From NCBI GenBank assembly GCA_016209585.1, contig JACQVU010000180.1, positions 1 to 33,344 on the forward strand: 33,344 nucleotides of DNA, read 5' to 3'. This document shows positions 7,628-27,966 of this stretch, piece after piece (the first letter of the stretch is position 1; every line of letters starts with the position of its first letter). This DNA is from Planctomycetota bacterium (lineage in GTDB: Bacteria > Planctomycetota > UBA8742 > JACQVU01). Both the position numbers and the translations under genes were made by a program. The notes under the pieces were generated by a model. The model saw only the letters and a program-made list of their open reading frames with translations. It was not told where the DNA came from and searched no databases.

Positions 7628-8182
7628 ATGGACACCGCCAAGATCGAGCGCGCGGTACGGATGATCCTCGAGGCGGTGGGAGAGGACCCGCAGCGGGAAG
7701 GATTGAAGGAGACGCCGCGGCGCGTGGCGAAGATGTACGAGGAGGTGTTCTCCGGTCTCGGCGCGGACGTCAACCGCCACTTCGAGGCCGTGTTCGCCGA
7801 GCCGTACGACGAAATGGTGATCCTCCGCGACATCCCCTTCCAGTCCTTCTGCGAGCACCACCTGTTGCCCTTCATCGGCCGGGCGCACGTGGCCTACGTG
7901 CCCCAGGGGCGGGTGATCGGCATCTCCAAACTGGCGCGCATCGTGCAGCATTTCGCCCGCCGGCCGCAGGTGCAGGAACGCCTCACCGACCAGGTGGCGA
8001 ACATCATCATGGAGAAACTGGAGCCTCGCGGCGTGGCCGTGGTCATGACGGCGGAGCATACCTGCATGACGCTCCGCGGCGTCAGGACTCCCGGTTGCAC
8101 CATGACCACCTCGTCGGTGCGGGGCATCTTCAAGGAGAATCTTGCCACGCGCGCCGAGGTCATGTCGCTCCTGCAACATTGA
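7628..8182 (+). CDS. folE: GTP cyclohydrolase I
   Basis: Starts at internal ATG 7628 of ORF 7232..8182. The sequence MDTAKIERAVRMILEAVGEDPQREGLKETPRRVAKMY...FQSFCEHHLLPF.G.AHVAY.P...V.G.SK.ARIV..FARRPQVQERLT...TAEHTCM..RGV is a near-textbook FolE. Confidence 0.95.
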   Translation: MDTAKIERAVRMILEAVGEDPQREGLKETPRRVAKMYEEVFSGLGADVNRHFEAVFAEPYDEMVILRDIPFQSFCEHHLLPFIGRAHVAYVPQGRVIGISKLARIVQHFARRPQVQERLTDQVANIIMEKLEPRGVAVVMTAEHTCMTLRGVRTPGCTMTTSSVRGIFKENLATRAEVMSLLQH

Positions 8183-8222
8183 CCGGCGGAGTGATCGCGC
8201 GGAGATTCCAAAAAAGCCCGCC

Positions 8223-11200
8223 GTGCGCCGGATAGACAACGCCCGGAACCTTCGCGCCCGTTTGCAGGCGGCCAAGGCCCACGCGGCCGAGCGCGCCCGC
8301 GCTCTGGCCGCCTCCGAACAGGTGCGCCGCGACCTGGAGACCGAGGCCGTCCGCCTGCGCCAGGCGCTGGACGCCCAGCACGGCGTGGCGCTGGACCTCG
8401 AAGCCCGCCTCGCCGACCTCACCCGGGAACTGGCCGGCCCCGTCGGCTCCGCCTGGCGCGCCCTGCGCGCCGGGCTGTTCAACCTCCGGGGCCGCGCCGT
8501 GGGGCGCTACCCGCCGGGCGCTCTCAGCCTCTCCGGCATGAAGCGCCATCCGGCGCGCGGGAGGGGCTGGCATCACGCCGAGGGGGCCGACCCCGAGATC
8601 ATCGTCGCCGGGCCTTTCGACCCCGGATGGACCGTGCTCGGCTTCACCGTGCAGGCCGACGCCGCCTGTTCGCTGGAACTGGTGGCGTTCAGCCCCGGCC
8701 GCGAAGCCCGCTGGGACGGCGGGCGGCTCTTCCCGGGCATGACCTGGCGCCAGTACGCGCTGGAGTTGCCGGACGGCGTGACCGACCTCGGCGTCCGGTT
8801 CCGTGGTTGGCCGGGGGGCGTCTTCTTCGCCAACCACGTCGCGCGCCGCGCCACCTGGTGGACGTGCCGGCTGCTGTCCCGGTCCGACGACGGTCGCGCC
8901 CGCCGCGCGCGCGGCGACCTGCTCGACGCCGGCCTGGGGCTGTTGCTGCCCGGCGCGGCCGCGCGCTACGTGCGGGCCTTTTCCCCGCCACCGGTCCCGG
9001 ACGGTCCGGCCACGGCCGCGCGGGCGCGGTCGGCGCGACGCGCCGGCCAGAACGGCGAAGATCGGCCGGATCTCGTGGAGCCGGTCTTCCGGCCCCTGCG
9101 CGGGGTCGCCCGCCACCCGGACCGGCTGCGCTTCCCGTGGCGCGCCGACGACGCCGATCCCCAGATGGTCGCCAGCGGCCCCTTCCCGGCGGGATGGGTC
9201 CGCTTCACGTGCGAGATCGTCGCGGAAGTCCCCTCCTGGGCCGTGCTTTACGTCGACGCGGGGCCGGGGGTCTCGGAGGCGCGGACCGTGACGCTCGGCC
9301 GGGTGGACGCCGCGCCCACCACCCTGGTGCGGATCGGCTGGTTGCCGAAAGAGACGCGCGCGCTGCGCCTCGACCCGATGACCGAGCCGGGCGGCTTCGC
9401 CATCACGCGCTTCTCCGTCCGGCGCGTGGACGACGACGAAGGCCGCGCCGCGGCTCTGCGGGACATCGCGGAGATGGCGCCTTACGGCCGGTGGCGCCCG
9501 GACGCGCCGCTGGAACCCCTGCGCGACCCCAGGCTGCGGGCCAATCTCCCGCGGTACGACGAGGCGCTGTTCGCCACGCTCTCGGAGATCGAAGTCCTGC
9601 GGCGCGACCCGTACGTCATTTTCCGGCGCGAACGGGATCGGGAGATCCCCACGCGAGCGGAGGCCGCGCGGGCGGTGGCGCGGATGGCCGATCCGCCGCT
9701 GGTGTCGATCATTTTCCCGGTGTTCAACTGTCCGGCGGAGTACCTGACGGCGGCCATCAGGTCCATCCGCGGGCAACTCTATCCGAAGTGGGAACTCTGC
9801 GTGGCCGACGACGCCTCCACCGCGCCGCACGTGCGGCCGCTGCTGCTGGCGCAGGCCGCCGCGGACTCCCGCGTTCGGATCATGTGGCGCGAGCGGAACG
9901 GGAACATTTCGGCGGCGTCCAACACGGCGCTGGAAATGGCGCGCGGCGAGTTCGTGGCGCTGGTGGACAACGACGACCTCATCGAACCCGACGCCCTGCT
10001 GCTCCTCGTCCAGGCCGCGCGCGCCCGTCCCGATGTAGACATGTTGTATTCGGACGAAGACAAGGTCGATGAGGTGGGCTGGCGGTTCATGCCCTTCTTC
10101 AAGCCCGACTGGTCGCCCGACTACCTCCACTCCTGCATGTACACCTGCCACATGGCCATGTTCCGCGCCAACCTGGTCCGGGAGGTGGGTGGCTTCCGGT
10201 CGCGGTACGACGGCGCGCAAGACTGGGACCTGGCGCTGCGGGTCTCGCGCCTTGCGCGGCGCATCGCGCACGTTCCCCGCGTGCTCTACCACTGGCGCTC
10301 GCATGCCACCTCCATGGCCCGCGCCACGGAAACCAAGCCCCACGCCCATTTCGCGGCCCAGGCCGCCCTCCGCGACTGGCTCGCGGCCGGCGACGTCGCC
10401 GGCCGCGTGGAGACCGGCCCGCTGCCCTGCATGTTCCACGTGCGCTATGAGATCGTCGGCGGTCCGCTGGTGAGCATCGTGGTGCCCACCGCGGGCGCGG
10501 CGCGCGCCGTGCGCGGCAAGCAGACCGACCTGGTGGCCAACCTCATCGAGCGCGTGCTGGCCATCACCGAGTACCCGAACTACGAGATCATCGTCGTGGC
10601 CGACGGCGACCTCCGGGCCGAGACCCGCCGGCGTATCGACCACCAGCGGGTGCGCGTTCTCCCCTTCCGGGAGCCGAAGTTCAACTTCGCCCGGAAGTGC
10701 AACCTCGGCGCCCGCGCCGCCCGCGGCGACCACGTCCTCCTCCTGAACGACGACACCGAACCCATCAACGGCGACTGGCTCACGGCCCTCTTGGAGTTCT
10801 CCCAGCAGAAAGACAACGGCGCCGCCGGCGCCAAGTTGCTCTTCCCCGACGGCACCATCCAGCACGTGGGCGTGACGTTGCAGGGGCGGTTGCCGGGCCA
10901 CCCGTTCTACGGCATGCCGGGCGGTTCGTCGGGCCATTTCAACAGCATCGACGTGCCGCGGAATTACTCGGCCGTCACGGGCGCCTGTTTGATGACCAAG
11001 CGCTCGCTCTACGAGGAGATGGGCGGCCTCGACGAAGCCTTCCCCGTCAATTACAACGACGTCGACTTCTGCCTGCGCCTGCGCCGCCGCGGCCTTTCCG
11101 TGGTCTACGTGCCCTACGCGACGCTCTACCACTTCGAGGCCCAGAGCCGCCGCGACGGCTCGGTGGCGGAGTGGGAGAAACAACTTTTCCTTCAGCGTTG

Positions 11201-11279
11201 GGGCGCGGAGTACGAGATCGACCCCTTCTTCAACCCCAATCTCAACCCCCGCTACGGCGACTTCCGGATGGGAATCTGA
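8223..11279 (+). CDS. Large multidomain glycosyltransferase with two GT2 catalytic domains
   Basis: The frame is open from TTG 8142, which overlaps folE. I tentatively start at GTG 8223, and this start is uncertain. The N-terminus is an Ala/Arg/Leu heptad-like stretch, followed by two copies of a ~110-aa module. GT2 domain 1 has PLVSIIFPVFNCPAEYL...VADDAST...LVDNDDL. GT2 domain 2 has PLVSIVVPTAG...IIVVADGD...LLLNDDTEP...GAKLLFPDGTIQHVGV. Confidence 0.8.
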   Translation: MRRIDNARNLRARLQAAKAHAAERARALAASEQVRRDLETEAVRLRQALDAQHGVALDLEARLADLTRELAGPVGSAWRALRAGLFNLRGRAVGRYPPGALSLSGMKRHPARGRGWHHAEGADPEIIVAGPFDPGWTVLGFTVQADAACSLELVAFSPGREARWDGGRLFPGMTWRQYALELPDGVTDLGVRFRGWPGGVFFANHVARRATWWTCRLLSRSDDGRARRARGDLLDAGLGLLLPGAAARYVRAFSPPPVPDGPATAARARSARRAGQNGEDRPDLVEPVFRPLRGVARHPDRLRFPWRADDADPQMVASGPFPAGWVRFTCEIVAEVPSWAVLYVDAGPGVSEARTVTLGRVDAAPTTLVRIGWLPKETRALRLDPMTEPGGFAITRFSVRRVDDDEGRAAALRDIAEMAPYGRWRPDAPLEPLRDPRLRANLPRYDEALFATLSEIEVLRRDPYVIFRRERDREIPTRAEAARAVARMADPPLVSIIFPVFNCPAEYLTAAIRSIRGQLYPKWELCVADDASTAPHVRPLLLAQAAADSRVRIMWRERNGNISAASNTALEMARGEFVALVDNDDLIEPDALLLLVQAARARPDVDMLYSDEDKVDEVGWRFMPFFKPDWSPDYLHSCMYTCHMAMFRANLVREVGGFRSRYDGAQDWDLALRVSRLARRIAHVPRVLYHWRSHATSMARATETKPHAHFAAQAALRDWLAAGDVAGRVETGPLPCMFHVRYEIVGGPLVSIVVPTAGAARAVRGKQTDLVANLIERVLAITEYPNYEIIVVADGDLRAETRRRIDHQRVRVLPFREPKFNFARKCNLGARAARGDHVLLLNDDTEPINGDWLTALLEFSQQKDNGAAGAKLLFPDGTIQHVGVTLQGRLPGHPFYGMPGGSSGHFNSIDVPRNYSAVTGACLMTKRSLYEEMGGLDEAFPVNYNDVDFCLRLRRRGLSVVYVPYATLYHFEAQSRRDGSVAEWEKQLFLQRWGAEYEIDPFFNPNLNPRYGDFRMGI

Positions 11280-11328
11280 TACAGAACATGGAGAATACGG
11301 GCGATATTTGAGGCACAGCGGAAGGAAC

Positions 11329-12585
11329 ATGATCCGACTGATTGAAGCGCTCAATTTCCGCTGCCTGCGCTATGTGAGCCGGCCGTTGGATCGGTTTCAC
11401 ATGCTCGTCGGACCGAACGCGAGCGGCAAGACGACCTTTCTCGACGTGATCGCGTTCCTCGGCGACATGGTTTCCGAGGGCCTGGACTACGCCTTGTCCC
11501 AGCGGGCCGAGTCGTTCGGAGATCTGCTTTTCGGGCGACAGGGGGACTGGTTCGAACTTGCCGTCGAAGTCGCGATCCCCAGCGATCGAGGACGTGAACT
11601 TCCTCCCGAGAAATTCGATACGATTCGGTACGAAGTTCGCATCGGCGTTACAGATCGCATCACCGAACCGGGCATCCTTCTGGAGAAGGTATGGTTGAAG
11701 CGTTGGAAACCGCCCGCGCCGCGTCCGCGCGCGATGTTCCCGCTGGAGCCTGACGCCCCCGCCTCTCTTGTTTCTCCAAAGGGTTCCGGGCGCCAGACGG
11801 TCCTTACAAAGAGCGGGGAGGGGGGCGACAATTTCTATAGCGAGGTCCGGATGGCCAAGCAAAAGGGGTGGTTCCCTTCGATCCGGCTTGGTCCGCGGAA
11901 ATCGGCGCTTGCCACCTTGCCCGACGATGAATCGAAGTTCCCCGTTTCCACATGGTTGAAGGGCTTTCTCACCACGGGCATTCAGCGGTGTGTGCTGAAC
12001 AGTCTGCTCATTCGGCGCGCGAGCCTTCCGGAAAAGAAAAGGGGGTTCAAGCCGGACGGCTCGAACCTTCCGTGGGTGATCGCGGAACTGGCGAAGCGCC
12101 GACCGGACAAATACGCCCAGTGGATTTCCCATTTGCGCACGGCGCTTCCAGACATCGAGACAATCAAGACGGTGGAACAGGAAGACGACAAGCGCCGCCA
12201 TCTGGTCGTTCGGTACAATGGGGGGCTGGAAGTGCCCTCCTGGATGGCTTCGGACGGCACGTTGCGCATGCTCGCGTTGACCCTTCCCGCGTATGTGCCC
12301 GAGTTCCGGGGTGTTTATCTGGTCGAAGAGCCGGAAAACGGCCTGCATCCGCTGGCGGTGGAGGTGGTTTCCCAGTCGCTTTCGTCGGTGTATGGAGCGC
12401 AGGTGTTGGTGGCGTCGCACTCCCCCGTCATTCTCAGTCTCATGACGGCCAAACAGGTGCTCTGCTTCCAGAAGGGCGCGTCCGGCGCGACCGACATCGT
12501 GGCCGGCACCGAACATCCCGCGCTCCGTGACTGGAAAGCGGATCCCAATCTCGGCACGATGTTCGCTTCCGGAGTCCTCGGATGA
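11329..12585 (+). CDS. ABC/SMC-like AAA ATPase (AAA_21/AAA_15 type), candidate sensor/motor of a two-gene module
   Basis: ATG 11329 is preceded by GGAAGGA. Walker A is LVGPNASGKTT. The ABC-signature-like motif is MASDGTLRML, Walker B/D-loop is VYLVEEPENGLHP, and the H-loop is LVASHSPV. About 270 residues are inserted between Walker A and the signature motif, as in AriA, AbiLi and PtuA-type ATPases. G+C is lower than in the flanks. Confidence 0.85.
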   Translation: MIRLIEALNFRCLRYVSRPLDRFHMLVGPNASGKTTFLDVIAFLGDMVSEGLDYALSQRAESFGDLLFGRQGDWFELAVEVAIPSDRGRELPPEKFDTIRYEVRIGVTDRITEPGILLEKVWLKRWKPPAPRPRAMFPLEPDAPASLVSPKGSGRQTVLTKSGEGGDNFYSEVRMAKQKGWFPSIRLGPRKSALATLPDDESKFPVSTWLKGFLTTGIQRCVLNSLLIRRASLPEKKRGFKPDGSNLPWVIAELAKRRPDKYAQWISHLRTALPDIETIKTVEQEDDKRRHLVVRYNGGLEVPSWMASDGTLRMLALTLPAYVPEFRGVYLVEEPENGLHPLAVEVVSQSLSSVYGAQVLVASHSPVILSLMTAKQVLCFQKGASGATDIVAGTEHPALRDWKADPNLGTMFASGVLG

Positions 12586-13217
12586 ACGGCACGACGCCAG
12601 TCCGGGATCTGGTCGTGCTCACGGCGTGCAAGAATGCGCAGTTCGCGATTCGGGGTCTGCTCATGCGGCGCCATTCGCCGGGCTTGCGGGCTATCGGGGA
12701 ACCGGGTTTTCTCGTTCACCCGGAACGCGATCCCGGCGTTCTCCGAAGCGGCCATGATCTCCTTCGTTCTTCCGCGAAGCAGTTCCACCATGCGCTCGTT
12801 GTCATGGACCGCGAGGGAAGCGGTGAAATGAAACTTGGCCGCGAAGAAATGGAGCAAGAAATCGAGAAACGCCTGGAAGCCAACGGGTGGGGAAATCGTG
12901 CCGCCGCCGTGGTGATCCAGCCCGAACTCGAATCGTGGGTCTGGAGCGACTCTCCTCACGTTCCAGAGATTCTCGGATGGGCGGCTCGACGCCCGCCGCT
13001 CGCAACCTGGCTTCGAGAAAACTCATGGATTGCGCCGCCATCTTCAAAGCCTGCTCGCCCAAAAGAGGCCTTGGAAAACGTCCTCATGACTACTGGAACG
13101 TCTCGTTCTTCCAGTATTTACGAATCGCTCGCGAAAAACGTGAGTCTCTCTCGCTGCGTCGATCCGGCGTTCAAGAAACTGAAGGAGACTCTCCAGCGGT
13201 GGTTTCCTGGGCAGTAG
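12582..13217 (+). CDS. Uncharacterised 211-aa protein coupled to the ATPase; possible Toprim-like effector (DUF4435/RloB/DUF4276 architectural class)
   Basis: The ATG overlaps the ATPase stop (ATGA, 12582..12585). The alternating strand/helix pattern carries acidic motifs: DLVVLTACKNAQFAIRGLL, HPERDPG, HALVVMDREGSG, VVIQPELESWVW. The C-terminus reads SLSRCVDPAFKKLKETLQRWF. I recognise no family with confidence. G+C is low, like its partner. Confidence 0.7.
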   Translation: MNGTTPVRDLVVLTACKNAQFAIRGLLMRRHSPGLRAIGEPGFLVHPERDPGVLRSGHDLLRSSAKQFHHALVVMDREGSGEMKLGREEMEQEIEKRLEANGWGNRAAAVVIQPELESWVWSDSPHVPEILGWAARRPPLATWLRENSWIAPPSSKPARPKEALENVLMTTGTSRSSSIYESLAKNVSLSRCVDPAFKKLKETLQRWFPGQ

Positions 13218-13479
13218 CATAGTGGCAAAGACGTGGCGGCCGGACGCGCCAGCCGAAAACGCCGGTCGAATTGGCGGGCACGGACTGCGGGACGGTGAAG
13301 CCGTGGCTGTGGCGGATGAAGACCCTGCTGCGCCAGAGCCGGACTGAAGGCGGCGTTCGAGAATTGCGAATGGCACACCGTGTTTCCGAACCCCAGCCTG
13401 CGAGACCTCAAGCGGCCCATCCTGCCGGCGGTCGCGTGAGGCGTCCAGGAGCGATCTGCACCCATGACCGACGCCCGGC

Positions 13480-25429: not shown

Positions 25430-25677
25430 GCGGATCTCGGCTGGTGACGGTCGCCTTGCGCCGGTCGTCAGCCCGCGCCCGTGGCCGGGGAAGCCCCAGT
25501 GTACCCGCGCCGCGCGTGAGGCGCATTCGCGGTTTCGCGGCGCCCGCCGGGCGCAGCCGAATGTTCTACCGATGGAGCCTCAAAGGAGTATACTGCGCCA
25601 CTTCGCGGGCGAGCGCGGCGCCACGAGAACCGGAGCCGTCGGCCCCCGAGTCGCCCGCAAACCCCAGCCCCGCCCGT

Positions 25678-26160
25678 ATGCGCGCGCCTTACTCCCAAGC
25701 CCTCGGTATGGTTGAGACCCTGGGCCGCGTCGGCTCCACCGAGGCGGCTGACGCCATGACCAAGGCCGCCCAGGTGACCCTCATCGGCCGCGAGGAGGTC
25801 GGCGGCGGCTACGTCACCGTCCTGGTCCGCGGCGACGTCGGCGCCGTGCGCGCCGCCGTCGAGGCTGGGGAGCGCGCGGCCAAGGCCGTGGGCAAGGTGG
25901 TCAGCGTCCACGTCATCCCCAAGCCGCACGAACAGACCCACACCATTCTGCCGCTGCTCTCCCCCGCCGCCGACGGGCCGCCGCTCTCGTTCGCGCAACG
26001 GCTGCTGGCCGCCTACGGGCAACCCGACGCGGACTTTCCGGCGAAGGGCGCCGCGCCGCGCCCGGCGGGTGAACGCGCGGGCCGGCCGGCCGCGGTTTCG
26101 GTGGAGGGCGAGAAGCGGGCGAAATCGACCCCCCGTGGCCGCCGCACCAGCCGGAAGTGA
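25678..26160 (+). CDS. Bacterial microcompartment shell protein, BMC-H (Pfam BMC domain) with a ~70-aa basic/Pro-Ala-rich C-terminal tail
   Basis: Starts at internal ATG 25678 of ORF 25444..26160. [79 protein letters not shown] aligns nearly position-for-position with PduA/EutM/CcmK ([48 protein letters not shown]...A...G.V...HVIPRPH). The tail ends in [15 protein letters not shown]. Confidence 0.87.
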
Positions 26161-26181: not shown

Positions 26182-27966
26182 TCACATCGCCAGAATGTCG
26201 AAGGCGCGGCCGGCGTCGACGCACTCGCGGGCCGCAAGGAACTGGTCCATGGTCATCGCGCTGAAGTTCAGCGGCCGGCCGTCCTGGTCGTGCAGCACCT
26301 TGGTGGCGTCGTCCAACTCGGTGACGTAATAGCGCAGGCGGTCGTCGATCACCGGCTCCCCGCTTCCCGCGTCGAACGAAACGCCGAAATTCTCGCTCAA
26401 CAGGCGTCGCACGGTGGGGTGCTTGAACATCTCGGTGCCGGGGTAGGCCGTGGCCGTGAACATCCGGCGGTTGACGGAGTTCATGGCCACCTCCCACTCG
26501 CGCGTGCCCGGGGTGACGCCGTCGGTGTAGAGGTCCTGCTGCCACTTGATGAAGGCCACCGAGGTTTGCAGTTGCCGAAGCGTCTCGCCGGGGTAGCCCA
26601 TGATCCAGGTGCAGTTGCCGTGCACCCCGTGCTCCTTGCACTTCTTCACCCCTTCCACCATCGTGAGCGGGAAGTCGTAGCCGCCCAGGCGCGTGGTTCC
26701 GTTGGTGAGAATGAAGCCCCCCTTGCCCATCTCTTCGAGCACGGCGGCGTCAGCCGACTCGGCGCCGAAGCCGATGTAGACGCAGCCGGCCTCGGCCATC
26801 AGTTTCACGCGCTGGATGTCGTTGTGCCGCATCCGGCCGGTGCGGGCGTCGGGGCGGATGTCGGCCGCCTCGTCGAGCCGGCCGTGCGTGCCCCAGCGGA
26901 GGCCGGTCTCGCGGATCAGGGGGCCGAGCGCAGCCGGCAACGCCGCGATGCGCCGCGGGATGACCATGAAGTTGTCGTCGGTGATGCCCACGAAGTCCAC
27001 GCCGTACTTCTCGTGGTAGAACCGCATCTCGGCCGCCATGGCCTCGGGCGACCGCACCCCGTAGTCGCGCTCCCCCTGCTGGCCGCGATAGCAGAACTTG
27101 CACGCGAAGGGGCACCCGCGCGACGACACCGTGGACAGCGAGCGATCCATGGTGAACGGCGCCGCCGAGGAGTTGGCCGAGTTTCCCCCCCAAATGGCGT
27201 TCCGAATGTAGACTTCAAGCACCGGGAAGCCGTCGACGTCGCGCTCCATGAGGTCGAGCGCCGGCAGCGGCAGAATGTCAAGGTTCCGCGGCCGGCCCCC
27301 GTCATAGAGAAAGCGCGGCTGGCCCTCCCATTCCCCGAGATAGTAGGGCGCCAGCAGCCCGGCCGCCCGCGCCGACGCCAGCCCGCGGCGGCGGACGTGG
27401 AGCGCGTCGAGCGCGATCTTGAGAATGACGTCGTCCCCCTCGCTGTGCGCCACGCCGTTCAACTCCGGAATCCAGGAGAAGAGGCCCGTCTTGAACTCCG
27501 TCGCCAGGCCGTTGCCGGAGACAATCATCGTCTCCGGCAAAAGCCGGCGCACGATGGCCGCGGCGCGCTCCTGCCACTTGAGCGTGGTGATCAAGCCGCT
27601 GAACGCCACCAGGTCAGGCTCGCCGTGGCGGGCGAAGTGGCGCTCGAAGAGCCCGGCGGCTTCCTCGTCCAGCAGGTGCCGGCCGTTCTTCAGGCCGCGC
27701 CGGCGCGCCAGGTCGTCCTGGATGCGATAGGCGTTGAGGTCCACGATGCTCGCGTCGGCGCCATACTCCCGCACCCGCGCCGCCAGCAACCCCGGCCCCA
27801 GCGGAACGTTGTTGGGCAGAGCCGTCTCCCGCAGCGGCATGTTCACGAAGCAGACCCGCGCGCCCTTCAGGTCGCCCGGGCGGATGGCGGCCGCCACCTC
27901 GGCCGGGTGGACGTAGGTCCGCGCGGGGGCGCTCAACACGGGCGGAGAAGCGAGAAGCGTGGGCAT
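26182..27966 (-). CDS. B12-binding-domain radical SAM enzyme (class B), substrate unknown
   Basis: The N-terminal cobalamin-binding fold is ARVCFVNMP...PLGPGLLAARVREYGADASIVDLN...DLVAFSG. The radical SAM cluster motif is SSRGCPFACKFCY (CxxxCxxC). It is followed by VGITDDNF and IGFGAESADAAVLEEMGKG. Total length is 594 aa. Confidence 0.88.
   Translation of the reverse strand: MPTLLASPPVLSAPARTYVHPAEVAAAIRPGDLKGARVCFVNMPLRETALPNNVPLGPGLLAARVREYGADASIVDLNAYRIQDDLARRRGLKNGRHLLDEEAAGLFERHFARHGEPDLVAFSGLITTLKWQERAAAIVRRLLPETMIVSGNGLATEFKTGLFSWIPELNGVAHSEGDDVILKIALDALHVRRRGLASARAAGLLAPYYLGEWEGQPRFLYDGGRPRNLDILPLPALDLMERDVDGFPVLEVYIRNAIWGGNSANSSAAPFTMDRSLSTVSSRGCPFACKFCYRGQQGERDYGVRSPEAMAAEMRFYHEKYGVDFVGITDDNFMVIPRRIAALPAALGPLIRETGLRWGTHGRLDEAADIRPDARTGRMRHNDIQRVKLMAEAGCVYIGFGAESADAAVLEEMGKGGFILTNGTTRLGGYDFPLTMVEGVKKCKEHGVHGNCTWIMGYPGETLRQLQTSVAFIKWQQDLYTDGVTPGTREWEVAMNSVNRRMFTATAYPGTEMFKHPTVRRLLSENFGVSFDAGSGEPVIDDRLRYYVTELDDATKVLHDQDGRPLNFSAMTMDQFLAARECVDAGRAFDILAM

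What the first reader, a model, noticed from the sequence alone, without database searches (positions are those of the whole stretch)
12582..13217. Partner protein: Toprim-like motif order but the canonical first-strand Glu is replaced
The motif order resembles Toprim/OLD-type nuclease partners (DUF4435/AriB, RloB, DUF4276). These have strand1-E(G), a central acidic DxD-like motif after a hydrophobic strand, then a late acidic 'xE..W/Y' motif. This protein has DLVVLTACKNAQF, HALVVMDREGSG and VVIQPELESWVW in those positions. Ala-Cys-Lys-Asn occupies the site where those families carry (E/D)G..(E/D). The C-terminus (SLSRCVDPAFKKLKETLQRWF) recalls the Cys-Pro-x-F...W ending I associate with DUF4276. 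The protein is therefore either a divergent catalytic variant, an inactivated adaptor, or a new fold family.
Basis: inference. Interest (0 to 1): 0.7.

Follow-up and report, generated by a model that had tools for sequence, protein, structure and literature searches.

The report
Defence nuclease MAD4 with cysteine swap
This small gene encodes a member of an already named family of anti-phage Toprim nucleases (MAD4/HEC-01B) that works with the ATPase gene just upstream; its only unusual feature is a cysteine where relatives carry a catalytic aspartate.

Summary
The ORF (12582-13217, 211 aa) and all quoted motifs are real. It is not a new fold. It scores above the curated cutoff for NCBIfam MAD4, and its start overlaps the stop of the upstream ORF, which scores as MAD3, an ABC ATPase. 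Together they match PADLOC HEC-01. The AlphaFold model (pLDDT 90) matches only the Toprim catalytic region of Xanthomonas OLD nuclease. Published work already places Mad4/DUF4276 in Toprim.

In 330 relatives the first-strand acid is Asp16 (306), while this protein has Cys16. D76, E115, E/D117, K156, K161 and C192 are essentially invariant and are all kept here. Cys16 is the only departure in 57 strongly conserved columns, and an independent assembly reproduces it.

Cys16 falls in about 11 separate clades with no compensating acid. All nine Gly16 variants carry an acid at position 19, which no Asp16 protein has.

The pair sits alone in a low-GC3 island among housekeeping genes, with no methylase. 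Most relatives are also free-standing; others lie inside Hma, type III R-M or canonical MADS.

Verdict: a new member of a known kind, probably still an active ATPase-controlled nuclease. Whether Cys16 supports catalysis is untested.

The parts
11329..12585 (+). mad3-like gene: ABC-type ATPase partner (418 aa from ATG 11329; the ORF listing extends it to a TTG at 11308)
   Evidence: NCBIfam NF047739 MAD3 scores 486.8 bits against a cutoff of 420. PADLOC HEC-01A gives 6e-41 and mad3 2e-33. Pfam finds AAA_21 and AAA_15. NCBI's own call is 418 aa (P0270). Walker A GPNASGKTT, Walker B YLVEEPENGLHP, signature SDGTLR and H-loop ASHSP are intact. The model's nearest structures are Septu PtuA, retron PtuA, Gabija GajA, the SMC head and Thermus scotoductus OLD.
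12582..13217 (+). mad4-like gene: 211-aa Toprim nuclease-type protein (the finding)
   Evidence: NCBIfam NF047734 MAD4 scores 214.6 bits against a cutoff of 160, covering residues 8-209 of the protein and 1-206 of the 206-position profile. PADLOC mad4 gives 1.1e-7 and HEC-01B 1.1e-6. The AlphaFold2 model has pLDDT 90.2 and pTM 0.86. Foldseek's top three hits are the Xanthomonas OLD C-terminal region 6njv/6njx/6njw, with probability 1.0 and TM 0.52.
12582..12585 (+). ATGA start/stop overlap of the two genes (operon, probable translational coupling)
   Evidence: Read directly from the sequence. MAD3 lies directly upstream of MAD4 in every fetched locus where the upstream DNA is present.
12627..12629 (+). 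Codon 16, TGC = Cys, at the end of strand beta1, where the family has Asp (the Toprim 'first-strand' acid)
   Evidence: Position 16 is D306/C12/G9/H1/A1 in 330 relatives. The codon is identical in an independent Logan assembly. Beta1 spans residues 8-14 in the model.
12639..12641 (+). Codon 20, CAG = Gln, four residues after the first-strand site, at the position of OLD E404 and AriB D30 (mapping inferred)
   Evidence: Position 20 is variable in the family: E122/Q44/R12/K8 of 191. The equivalence rests on spacing alone, not on superposed coordinates.
12729..12737 (+). D50-P51-G52 after strand beta2: the conserved Toprim glycine region
   Evidence: D50 is present in 189 of 191 sequences. G52 is invariant in the 120 closest homologues and present in 137 of 150 representatives. 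Beta2 spans residues 42-45. Toprim motif definition from PMC6755086.
12807..12815 (+). D76-R77-E78 at the end of strand beta3: counterpart of the Toprim DxD motif
   Evidence: D76 is present in 191 of 191 sequences and in 149 of 150 representatives, the remaining one having a gap. E78 is present in 167 of 191. The canonical-MADS homologue has a true D-C-D at this site. AriB has D88/E90.
12918..12932 (+). Q113-P114-E115-L116-E117 after strand beta4: second acidic cluster (inferred metal-B site, as for OLD T506/E508)
   Evidence: E115 is present in 191 of 191 sequences, and position 117 is E149/D42. Position 113 is D153/E15/A8/S6/N5, and Gln occurs only in the window protein in that set.
13047..13064 (+). 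K156-P-A-R-P-K161: two invariant lysines in the helical domain, candidates for the OLD K562-type catalytic lysine (inferred)
   Evidence: K156 and K161 are each present in 191 of 191 sequences. The role of OLD K562 is described in PMC6755086. The equivalence was not checked on coordinates.
13155..13163 (+).
   Evidence: C192 is present in 190 of 191 sequences and D194 in 184 of 191. The motif is conserved as far as the canonical-MADS plasmid homologue. Its function is unknown.
11100..13350 (.). Small low-GC island carrying only the two genes
   Evidence: GC is 0.58-0.63 in the island against 0.70-0.77 in the flanks. GC3 is 0.74 for MAD3 and 0.64 for MAD4, against 0.86-0.93 for neighbouring native genes.

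Best explanation
The locus is a horizontally acquired, free-standing two-gene anti-phage cassette of the MAD3-MAD4 / HEC-01 type.

Shown here:
- MAD3 (11329-12585) is an ABC ATPase of the PtuA/GajA/OLD clade.
- MAD4 (12582-13217) is a separate OLD/DUF4276-like Toprim domain followed by a helical domain.

Inferred mechanism:
- The family's active site is a two-metal centre. It is built from the beta1 acid (Asp16), D76(xE78) after beta3, E115/E117 after beta4, and an invariant lysine (K156 or K161).
- By analogy with PARIS, Gabija, OLD and Septu, the ATPase oligomer holds or gates the nuclease until a phage cue. The nuclease then cuts nucleic acid. The substrate is unknown.

This copy:
- Asp16 is replaced by Cys with no compensating acid nearby, while the rest of the site is untouched.
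- I judge it most likely to be a still-functional nuclease in which the thiolate or a water takes the carboxylate's place, possibly with altered metal preference or lower activity.
- It cannot be using a linked methyltransferase for self/non-self discrimination, because none is encoded on the 33-kb contig.
For: Identity:
- The NCBIfam MAD4 and MAD3 equivalog models are both passed above their cutoffs.
- PADLOC reports HEC-01A/B and mad3/mad4.
- The two genes overlap as ATGA.

Fold:
- The MAD4 model has pLDDT 90.2, with four strands alternating with helices and then a helical domain.
- The only confident PDB matches are the OLD catalytic region, at probability 1.0 and TM 0.52 over 217 columns.
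- A phage RloB-like protein matches in BFVD at probability 0.97.
- Published work assigns HEC-01B and DUF4276/Mad4 to Toprim.

Active site:
- D76, E115, K156 and K161 are invariant in 191 sequences, and position 117 is always E or D.
- The pattern parallels AriB E26/D30/D88/E90/E122 and OLD E400/E404/D455/D457/T506/E508/K562.

The Cys variant is not decay:
- It is the only mismatch in 57 columns that are at least 90% conserved.
- An independent assembly gives the same sequence.
- Cys16 falls in about 11 separate clades on a neighbour-joining tree, although Asp to Cys needs two nucleotide changes. Most one-step replacements are absent or rare (H 1, A 1; no N, E, Y or V); Gly, also one step, occurs 9 times.
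- Cys variants keep D76 in 12 of 12, E115 in 11 of 12 and E117 in 12 of 12.
- All nine Gly16 variants carry an acid at position 19 (0 of 306 Asp16 proteins do) and three also have E15, which shows the site is under selection.
- OLD single mutants including E400A keep activity.

Free-standing cassette:
- No methylase, helicase, DUF499 or kinase gene occurs anywhere in the window.
- GC3 is 0.64-0.74 against about 0.9 in native genes.
- Of the loci with enough flank to judge, 44 lack Hma genes (a few of these are type III R-M nested) and 10 are Hma-embedded.
- A HEC-01 cassette on its own protected E. coli B against at least one phage (PMC12881386).
- In MADS, mad3 and mad4 are each needed for defence. 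The methylase gene mad5 can be deleted only if mad2 or mad3 is deleted too, which places MAD3 in the toxic effector arm.

Partner:
- MAD3's ATPase motifs are intact, and its nearest structures are nuclease-regulating ABC ATPases.
Against: - No biochemical or genetic data exist for this protein or for any Cys16 variant.
- In PARIS the equivalent E26A mutation abolishes defence and toxicity, so loss of the beta1 carboxylate can be inactivating.
- This copy also lacks the second acid of the segment (Gln20). It also has Gln113, where about 80% of relatives have Asp, though both positions vary in the family.
- Its MAD3 partner departs from the family at 13 of 160 strongly conserved columns, against a median of 3. 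That could mean relaxed constraint.
- Payne et al. detected no defence for their HEC-01.
- The residue equivalences to OLD and AriB rest on secondary-structure position and spacing. I could not read the model coordinates, so they were not checked by superposition.
Confidence: 0.68

Rival explanations
1. MAD4 here is catalytically dead. Replacing the beta1 Asp with Cys, together with Gln20 and Gln113, destroys metal-A binding. The protein then survives as a non-cleaving adaptor, decoy or regulator bound to MAD3, or the cassette is on its way to being lost.
For: - AriB E26A abolishes PARIS defence and toxicity.
- The window protein has no acidic residue at all in positions 15-20.
- Its Gln113 is unique among 191 relatives.
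- The partner MAD3 has 13 departures at conserved columns against a median of 3, several of them at near-invariant residues (P233L, G235E, H289R, Y291H).
- A nuclease with no linked methylase might be expected to lose activity to avoid self-damage, since in MADS deleting the methylase is lethal unless mad2 or mad3 is also lost.
Against: - Cys16 is the only change in 57 conserved columns of MAD4, and both ORFs are intact.
- D76, E78, E115, E117, K156 and K161 are all retained. Dead enzymes usually drift at the remaining catalytic positions.
- Cys recurs in about 11 clades, whereas most random one-step substitutions are nearly absent.
- OLD E400A keeps activity.
- Most Asp16 relatives are also free-standing, so lack of a methylase does not by itself demand inactivation.
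Confidence: 0.22
2. The pair is the leftover of a larger methylation-linked system (MADS, Hma or type III R-M) whose other genes were deleted. On this reading it is an orphan fragment and not an autonomous unit.
For: - Relatives do occur inside Hma (10 loci), between type III Mod and Res genes (8 loci), and in a canonical MADS operon on a Piscinibacter plasmid.
- NCBIfam names the proteins after MADS.
Against: - tblastn with the Hma proteins finds nothing else in the window.
- The flanking genes are intact housekeeping genes lying 49 bp upstream and 325 bp downstream.
- The low-GC3 signal covers only the two genes.
- The free-standing arrangement is the majority state among relatives.
- A HEC-01 cassette alone can defend.
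Confidence: 0.07
3. The protein represents a new fold or a non-Toprim function, and the motif order is coincidental.
For: - Pfam gives no hit for this sequence.
- A PDB sequence search finds nothing meaningful.
Against: - The protein is an above-cutoff member of MAD4.
- A confident model matches the OLD Toprim region over its full length.
- Relatives give collinear sub-threshold DUF4276 hits.
- Published work assigns the family to Toprim.
Confidence: 0.02

Closest known systems
MAD4 of the methylation-associated defence system (MADS; Maestri et al. 2024, preprint 10.1101/2023.03.30.534895; NCBIfam NF047734)
   Same: - Full-length match above the curated cutoff.
- The same partner (MAD3) directly upstream.
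- The same invariant residues (D76, E115, E/D117, K156, K161, C192, C-terminal WF) as a homologue in a canonical MADS operon.
   Different: - None of the other mad genes (methylase, kinase, MAD6-8) is present in the window.
- Only about 33-36% identical to the canonical-context homologue.
- Cys replaces Asp16.
HEC-01 (HEC-01A ABC ATPase + HEC-01B Toprim; Payne et al., bioRxiv 10.1101/2024.01.29.577857; PADLOC-DB v2)
   Same: - A two-gene ABC ATPase plus separate Toprim protein.
- Both PADLOC models are hit.
- Close relatives are embedded in Hma, as first described.
   Different: - Here the pair is not embedded in Hma but free-standing.
- The HEC-01B match is weak (1.1e-6) and covers residues 67-205 only.
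- Payne et al. report a conserved OLD-like metal site, one ligand of which is Cys in this copy.
OLD family nucleases, class 2 (Xanthomonas and Burkholderia OLD; PDB 6njv, 6nk8; PMC6755086)
   Same: - Best structural match for MAD4: Toprim plus helical domain at TM 0.52.
- The same logic of a beta1 acid, DxD/E, a later acidic pair and a lysine.
- An ABC ATPase partner of the same clade.
   Different: - In OLD the ATPase and Toprim are one polypeptide; here they are two genes.
- Sequence identity is 12-14%.
- The beta1 residue is Glu in OLD, Asp in MAD4 and Cys here.
PARIS AriA/AriB (PMC11464382)
   Same: - A split ABC ATPase plus Toprim nuclease.
- AriB's acidic set E26/D30/D88/E90/E122 has the same order and spacing as MAD4 D16/E20/D76/E78/E115.
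- It provides the sensor-releases-nuclease model used here by analogy.
   Different: - AriB is a DUF4435 protein of about 35 kDa.
- No PADLOC AriB hit was obtained for MAD4, and no AriB structure appeared among the Foldseek matches.
- The trigger and substrate of MAD3-MAD4 are unknown.
Pfam DUF4276 (PF14103) and RloB-like proteins
   Same: - Collinear weak HMM matches in 8 of 35 relatives.
- A phage RloB-like model is the best credible BFVD match.
- Both are described as Toprim members, with Mad4 as a DUF4276 homologue.
   Different: - The window protein has no Pfam hit.
- The best relative scores 27.2 against a gathering score of 30.2, so this is a sister family and not a Pfam member.

Membership tests
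MAD4 protein family (NCBIfam NF047734, equivalog) | Whole-protein HMM score at or above the curated cutoff (160 bits), with full-length coverage | tested here: met
   214.6 bits, E 1.6e-63, protein residues 8-209 against profile positions 1-206 of 206.
MAD4 protein family (NCBIfam NF047734, equivalog) | Encoded immediately downstream of a MAD3 ABC ATPase | tested here: met
   The upstream ORF scores 486.8 bits against the MAD3 cutoff of 420, and the genes overlap as ATGA. The same arrangement is seen in all fetched loci that include the upstream DNA.
MAD4 protein family (NCBIfam NF047734, equivalog) | Family-invariant residues D76, E115, E/D117, K156, K161 and C192 | tested here: met
   All are present in the window protein and are invariant or nearly so in 191 relatives.
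MAD4 protein family (NCBIfam NF047734, equivalog) | Asp at the end of strand beta1 (position 16; 93% of 330 members) | tested here: not met
   The window has Cys16 (TGC, 12627-12629). The census is D306/C12/G9/H1/A1.
MADS system (Maestri et al.; MacSyFinder model) | MAD6, MAD7 and MAD8 (mandatory in the authors' model) plus a methyltransferase in one operon | tested here: not met
   The model definition is given. Pfam scans of 20 window genes show only housekeeping functions. A canonical operon, for comparison, is on the Piscinibacter plasmid.
HEC-01 (PADLOC candidate system) | Adjacent HEC-01A ATPase and HEC-01B Toprim genes | tested here: met
   HEC-01A 6e-41 and HEC-01B 1.1e-6, the latter a partial match to residues 67-205.
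Hma system (HmaA helicase, HmaB DUF1156 methylase, HmaC DUF499 ATPase) | Presence of HmaA, HmaB and HmaC around the pair | tested here: not met
   tblastn with the Gemmatales Hma proteins finds nothing in the window. The same proteins are confirmed as HmaA/B/C in L002.
Toprim superfamily | Alpha/beta fold with a four-stranded parallel sheet, and structural similarity to solved Toprim domains | tested here: met
   The model has strands 8-14, 42-45, 68-76 and 107-112 alternating with helices. Foldseek matches the OLD catalytic region at probability 1.0 and TM 0.52-0.53.
Toprim superfamily | Conserved acidic residue (canonically Glu) at the beta1 loop | tested here: not met
   It is Cys16 in this protein and Asp in the family. 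Motif definition from PMC6755086.
Toprim superfamily | Conserved glycine after beta2, and a DxD motif after beta3 | tested here: met
   G52 is invariant among the 120 closest homologues. D76-x-E78 is a DxE form, as in AriB D88/E90, and the canonical-MADS homologue has D-C-D.
Pfam DUF4276 (PF14103) | HMM score at or above the gathering threshold (30.2 bits) | tested here: not met
   There is no hit for the window protein at E <= 1. The best relative scores 27.2 bits.
OLD family nucleases | N-terminal ABC ATPase and C-terminal Toprim fused in one polypeptide | tested here: not met
   There are two separate ORFs. OLD architecture from PMC6755086.
PARIS (AriA/AriB) | AriB-type DUF4435 Toprim effector | tested here: not met
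   PADLOC gives only mad4 and HEC-01B for the small protein, with no AriB hit. The AriA models are hit by the ATPase only at the level expected for generic AAA_21 similarity.
Any of the above, as an active nuclease or defence system | Metal-dependent nuclease activity and phage protection | not testable with these tools
   This needs biochemistry and phage assays.

The most novel reading that the evidence does not exclude
Cys16 may be a selected, functional replacement of the Toprim first-strand carboxylate and not a defect. That would make it a 'thiol-Toprim' active-site variant.

The thiolate would ligate a softer metal (Mn, Fe, Co or Zn) or make the nuclease redox-gated. The variant has arisen repeatedly within MAD4 (about 11 clades, roughly 4% of the family) without any compensating acid. 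Gly16 variants, in contrast, all carry an acid at position 19, three residues on, and three also have Glu15.

This would be, to my knowledge, the first natural Toprim nuclease lineage with a cysteine at the catalytic acid position.
Probability: 0.3. Interest if true: 0.55.

Novelty: new member of a known kind. Interest (0 to 1): 0.3.

Why it matters
Practical value:
- The GenBank record calls this protein 'hypothetical'. It can now be named a MAD4/HEC-01B-type Toprim nuclease, paired with its MAD3 ABC ATPase.

Two points go slightly beyond what the papers I read state:
- In this branch the MAD3-MAD4 pair is mostly a free-standing mobile cassette. It is also found nested in three different methylation-linked systems: Hma, type III R-M and canonical MADS. 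The 'methylation-associated' name therefore describes only some of its contexts.
- The first-strand catalytic position tolerates only three states: Asp, uncompensated Cys, or Gly accompanied by an acid three residues on. This is a clean natural experiment on Toprim metal-site plasticity, and it gives an obvious mutational test (C16D, C16A, C16S).

Neither point changes how these systems are understood unless the Cys variant proves to have distinct chemistry.

Tried and rejected
- Profile search of PDB sequences with the family alignment gave only a chance hit, E 1.6.
- tblastn against 50,697 phage records found no match. The plasmid collection gave a single hit, which turned out to be useful as the canonical-MADS comparison.
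- A search for flanking direct or inverted repeats, promoters or terminators that would mark the island's borders found only short matches at chance level.
- I tested whether Cys16 goes with a free-standing context. The three Cys16 loci with context (window, L004, L063) are all without Hma genes (L004 with shorter flanks), but so are most Asp16 loci, so nothing can be concluded.
- I tested whether the unusual substitutions in the window's MAD3 are shared with the MAD3 partners of other Cys16 proteins. They are not; they are private to this lineage.
- I looked for columns co-varying with Cys16. Only weak associations appeared (best p about 1e-4, uncorrected), and none was structurally interpretable.
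- DUF4276 membership fails the Pfam threshold.
- I considered that the Cys codon might be an assembly error. This is rejected, because an independent Logan assembly is identical.
- The published MADS paper (PMID 39094583) is not held in the library, so I used its preprint.
- I could not read the model coordinates, so residue-to-residue distances (C16 to D76, E115 and C192) and a superposition on OLD were not possible.
Full report
**Observation.** The ORF at 12582-13217 (+) is real and encodes 211 aa. Its ATG overlaps the stop codon of the upstream ORF as ATGA. The D76/E78 numbering is correct. 'E124/E126' is a miscount, because the glutamates of PELE are E115 and E117.

**Identity.** Pfam finds nothing in the protein, but NCBIfam does. 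It matches NF047734, 'methylation-associated defense system protein MAD4', at 214.6 bits against a curated cutoff of 160, end to end. The upstream ORF matches NF047739, the MAD3 AAA/ABC ATPase, at 486.8 bits against a cutoff of 420. PADLOC gives mad4 and HEC-01B for the small protein, and HEC-01A and mad3 for the ATPase. The window is a whole 33,344-bp contig of a Planctomycetes metagenome-assembled genome, in which the protein is annotated 'hypothetical'. The family is large. There are 703 hits in the word-indexed search. The exhaustive profile search finds 1,647 representatives of 50%-identity clusters at E <= 1e-3, of which 627 are at E <= 1e-30. The closest relative is only 58-59% identical.

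**Fold.** An AlphaFold2 model built on 35 homologues is confident, with mean pLDDT 90.2 and pTM 0.86.
- It has four strands (8-14, 42-45, 68-76, 107-112) alternating with helices, followed by an all-helical domain from 117 to 207.
- Against the PDB, the only convincing matches are three crystal forms of the catalytic C-terminal region of Xanthomonas campestris OLD. They have probability 1.0, E 2-4e-3 and TM 0.49-0.53 over about 217 columns, which is the whole length of both proteins.
- Against viral models, the best credible match is a phage RloB-like protein, at probability 0.97 and TM 0.44.
- Eight of 35 relatives give weak hits to Pfam DUF4276. These are collinear over almost the entire profile but below the gathering score, 27.2 against 30.2 bits.

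This agrees with published statements. Payne et al. describe HEC-01B as a TOPRIM protein with an OLD-like metal site. The Menshen study names DUF4276 and RloB as Toprim members and calls Mad4 a DUF4276 homologue.

**The active site and what is unusual here.** In class 2 OLD the catalytic set is E400 (the beta1 Toprim Glu), E404, D455xD457, T506/E508 and K562. In PARIS AriB it is E26, D30, D88, E90 and E122. The MAD4 family shows the same order and spacing:
- Asp16 at the end of beta1, and a frequent Glu20.
- D50-P-G52 after beta2.
- D76-x-E78 at the end of beta3.
- (D113)-P-E115-L-E117 after beta4.
- Two invariant lysines, K156 and K161, in the helical domain.

In 191 non-redundant relatives, D76, E115, K156 and K161 are invariant. 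Position 117 is always E or D, and C192 is present in 190 of 191. A homologue from a canonical MADS operon, only about 33-36% identical, keeps all of these and has a true D-C-D.

The equivalences to OLD and AriB are inferred from secondary-structure position and spacing. I could not access coordinates to superpose the structures.

At position 16 a combined set of 330 sequences has Asp 306, Cys 12, Gly 9, His 1 and Ala 1. The window protein is one of the Cys minority.

**Is the cysteine decay or design?** Several results argue against decay.
- Cys16 is the only mismatch of the window protein in the 57 alignment columns that are at least 90% conserved; the family median is one mismatch.
- An independent assembly of the sequencing run gives the identical sequence, including TGC at codon 16.
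- On a neighbour-joining tree built without residues 14-20, the 12 Cys16 sequences fall into 11 separate clades with an Asp root, and their nearest neighbours carry Asp. NJ trees of short proteins are noisy, so 11 is an upper estimate, but multiple origins are clear.
- Asp to Cys needs two nucleotide changes. Yet of the one-step replacements, Asn, Glu, Tyr and Val are absent and His and Ala occur once each; only Gly (9) is common.
- All nine Gly16 variants carry an acidic residue at position 19, which is present in 0 of 306 Asp16 proteins. Three also have Glu15, recreating a canonical 'EG'. In those proteins the carboxylate appears to have moved rather than been lost.
- Cys16 variants show no such compensation. 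Five of 12, including this one (C16, Q20), have no acid at all in positions 15-20. They nevertheless keep D76 (12 of 12), E115 (11 of 12) and E117 (12 of 12).
- OLD tolerates E400A in vitro.

On the other side, AriB E26A abolishes PARIS function. This copy also has Gln113, where about 80% of relatives have Asp, although that position is variable. I therefore lean to a working variant site but cannot settle the question.

**Context in the window.**
- Nothing else on the contig belongs to a methylation-linked system.
- The neighbours are a family 2 glycosyltransferase (8142-11279), a STAS protein, ManC and a hybrid histidine kinase. Further out lie panC, an Nramp transporter, trmD, rplS, RNase D and others.
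- tblastn with helicase, DUF1156 and DUF499 proteins finds nothing.
- The two genes form a roughly 2-kb island of 58-63% GC in a 70-77% GC background.
- Their GC3 is 0.74 and 0.64, against 0.86-0.93 in native genes. This indicates horizontal acquisition of just this pair.
- No border repeats were found.

**Context in relatives.** I fetched 80 genomic loci.
- MAD3 always lies directly upstream of MAD4 wherever the upstream DNA is present.
- Ten loci (counting one Gemmatales locus recovered twice, from two assemblies) are embedded between a DUF1156 methylase and a DUF499 ATPase, usually with an SNF2 helicase. PADLOC confirms these as HmaB, HmaC and HmaA.
- Eight loci are nested between a type III Mod methylase and a Res restriction subunit.
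- One plasmid homologue sits in a canonical MADS operon: HTH, N6-methylase, ATPase, MAD4, a hypothetical gene, a 1,391-aa kinase and further genes.
- Forty-four loci with at least 6 kb upstream and 4.5 kb downstream have no Hma genes. Once the few type III cases among them are set aside, the rest share no recurrent neighbour.

So the pair behaves as a mobile two-gene cassette that is often, but not necessarily, lodged inside methylation-based systems. The window copy belongs to the common free-standing class.

**The partner.**
- MAD3 starts at ATG 11329, and NCBI's call of 418 aa agrees.
- Its Walker A, Walker B, signature and H-loop motifs are intact.
- Its model (pLDDT 81) is closest to Septu PtuA, retron-associated PtuA, Gabija GajA, the SMC head and Thermus OLD. 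All of these are ABC ATPases, and the defence-system members among them scaffold or gate a nuclease.
- It is unusually diverged. It has 13 mismatches in 160 conserved columns against a median of 3, and all are private to this lineage. This could reflect relaxed constraint or adaptation.

**Mechanism.**
- Shown: family membership, gene pairing, the Toprim/OLD-like fold, conservation of an OLD/AriB-like acidic and lysine constellation, and horizontal origin.
- From the literature: mad3 and mad4 are each required for MADS defence. The methylase gene can be deleted only together with mad2 or mad3, which places MAD3 in the toxic effector arm. One HEC-01 cassette alone protected E. coli B against at least one phage, although another showed no activity.
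- Inferred: MAD3 oligomers hold MAD4 inactive and release or activate it on a phage-derived cue, as in PARIS. MAD4 then cleaves nucleic acid by two-metal catalysis.
- Unknown: the trigger, the substrate (DNA or tRNA), and how self is spared without a linked methylase.

**Verdict.** This is a new member of a known kind. The family, its Toprim nature and its ATPase partnership are already described and now carry curated names. The remaining curiosity is the recurrent, uncompensated Cys at the first-strand catalytic position. It is cheap to test and would be of moderate interest if it proves to be a functional thiol ligand.

Noticed in passing
window 11329-12585: The MAD3 ATPase of this contig departs from its family at 13 of 160 columns that are at least 90% conserved (family median 3). 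Several changes fall at near-invariant residues (SPPG to SLPE at 232-235, R284Q, H289R, Y291H, W68F). All ATPase motifs are intact. The changes are private to this lineage and are not shared with the MAD3 partners of other Cys16 MAD4 proteins.
   Followed up: partly
L006, L009, L016, L021, L026, L029, L055, L065 (for example L016 5599-13485): In eight genomes the MAD3-MAD4 pair is associated with type III restriction-modification genes, typically nested between a Mod methylase and a Res subunit (in L006 both lie downstream). This is a second kind of 'embedding' besides Hma. I did not see it mentioned in the papers I read.
   Followed up: partly
MAD4 family alignment, positions 15-19 (for example L053, L074, L078, P0163, P0216): All nine Gly16 variants carry an acid at position 19 (E or D; 0 of 306 Asp16 proteins do), and three also have Glu15, recreating the canonical Toprim 'EG'. 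The first-strand carboxylate therefore appears to have moved within the loop rather than been lost.
   Followed up: yes
L085 (Piscinibacter gummiphilus plasmid NZ_CP136338.1, 46966-64032 in the record): This is a canonical MADS-type operon on a 143-kb non-mobilizable plasmid: HTH, N6 methylase, AAA ATPase, a 215-aa MAD4, a hypothetical gene, a 1,391-aa protein kinase and two more genes. All of its unnamed genes are annotated 'hypothetical' in RefSeq.
   Followed up: partly
L002 846-4452 (Gemmatales genome BPJP01000001.1): The HmaA SNF2 helicase of this Hma system is split into two ORFs. One is an HTH plus the N-terminal SNF2 part (334 aa). The other is the Helicase_C plus NOV_C part (707 aa). 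They are separated by about 480 bp, so the gene is either disrupted or naturally split.
   Followed up: no
L001 1-19: The Logan contig that independently confirms the MAD4 sequence begins with AGATGTGTATAAGAGACAG. By my own recognition, this is the Nextera transposase adapter left untrimmed in that assembly.
   Followed up: no
window 8142-11279: A 1,045-aa protein has two family 2 glycosyltransferase domains in its C-terminal half (residues 522-1013). The roughly 500 N-terminal residues have no Pfam match. The true start is uncertain in this high-GC DNA.
   Followed up: no
window 25444-26160 and 26182-27966: A BMC-domain (bacterial microcompartment shell) protein lies next to a radical SAM protein and a Crp-family regulator. 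This may be part of a planctomycete microcompartment locus.
   Followed up: no
window 11242-12516 (-) and 12315-12959 (-): Long antisense ORFs of 424 and 214 aa overlap the two defence genes. I made no homology search for them, and they look like the usual open frames of GC-rich DNA. One passes a crude GC3 test, so GC3 alone is not a safe gene caller in this region.
   Followed up: partly
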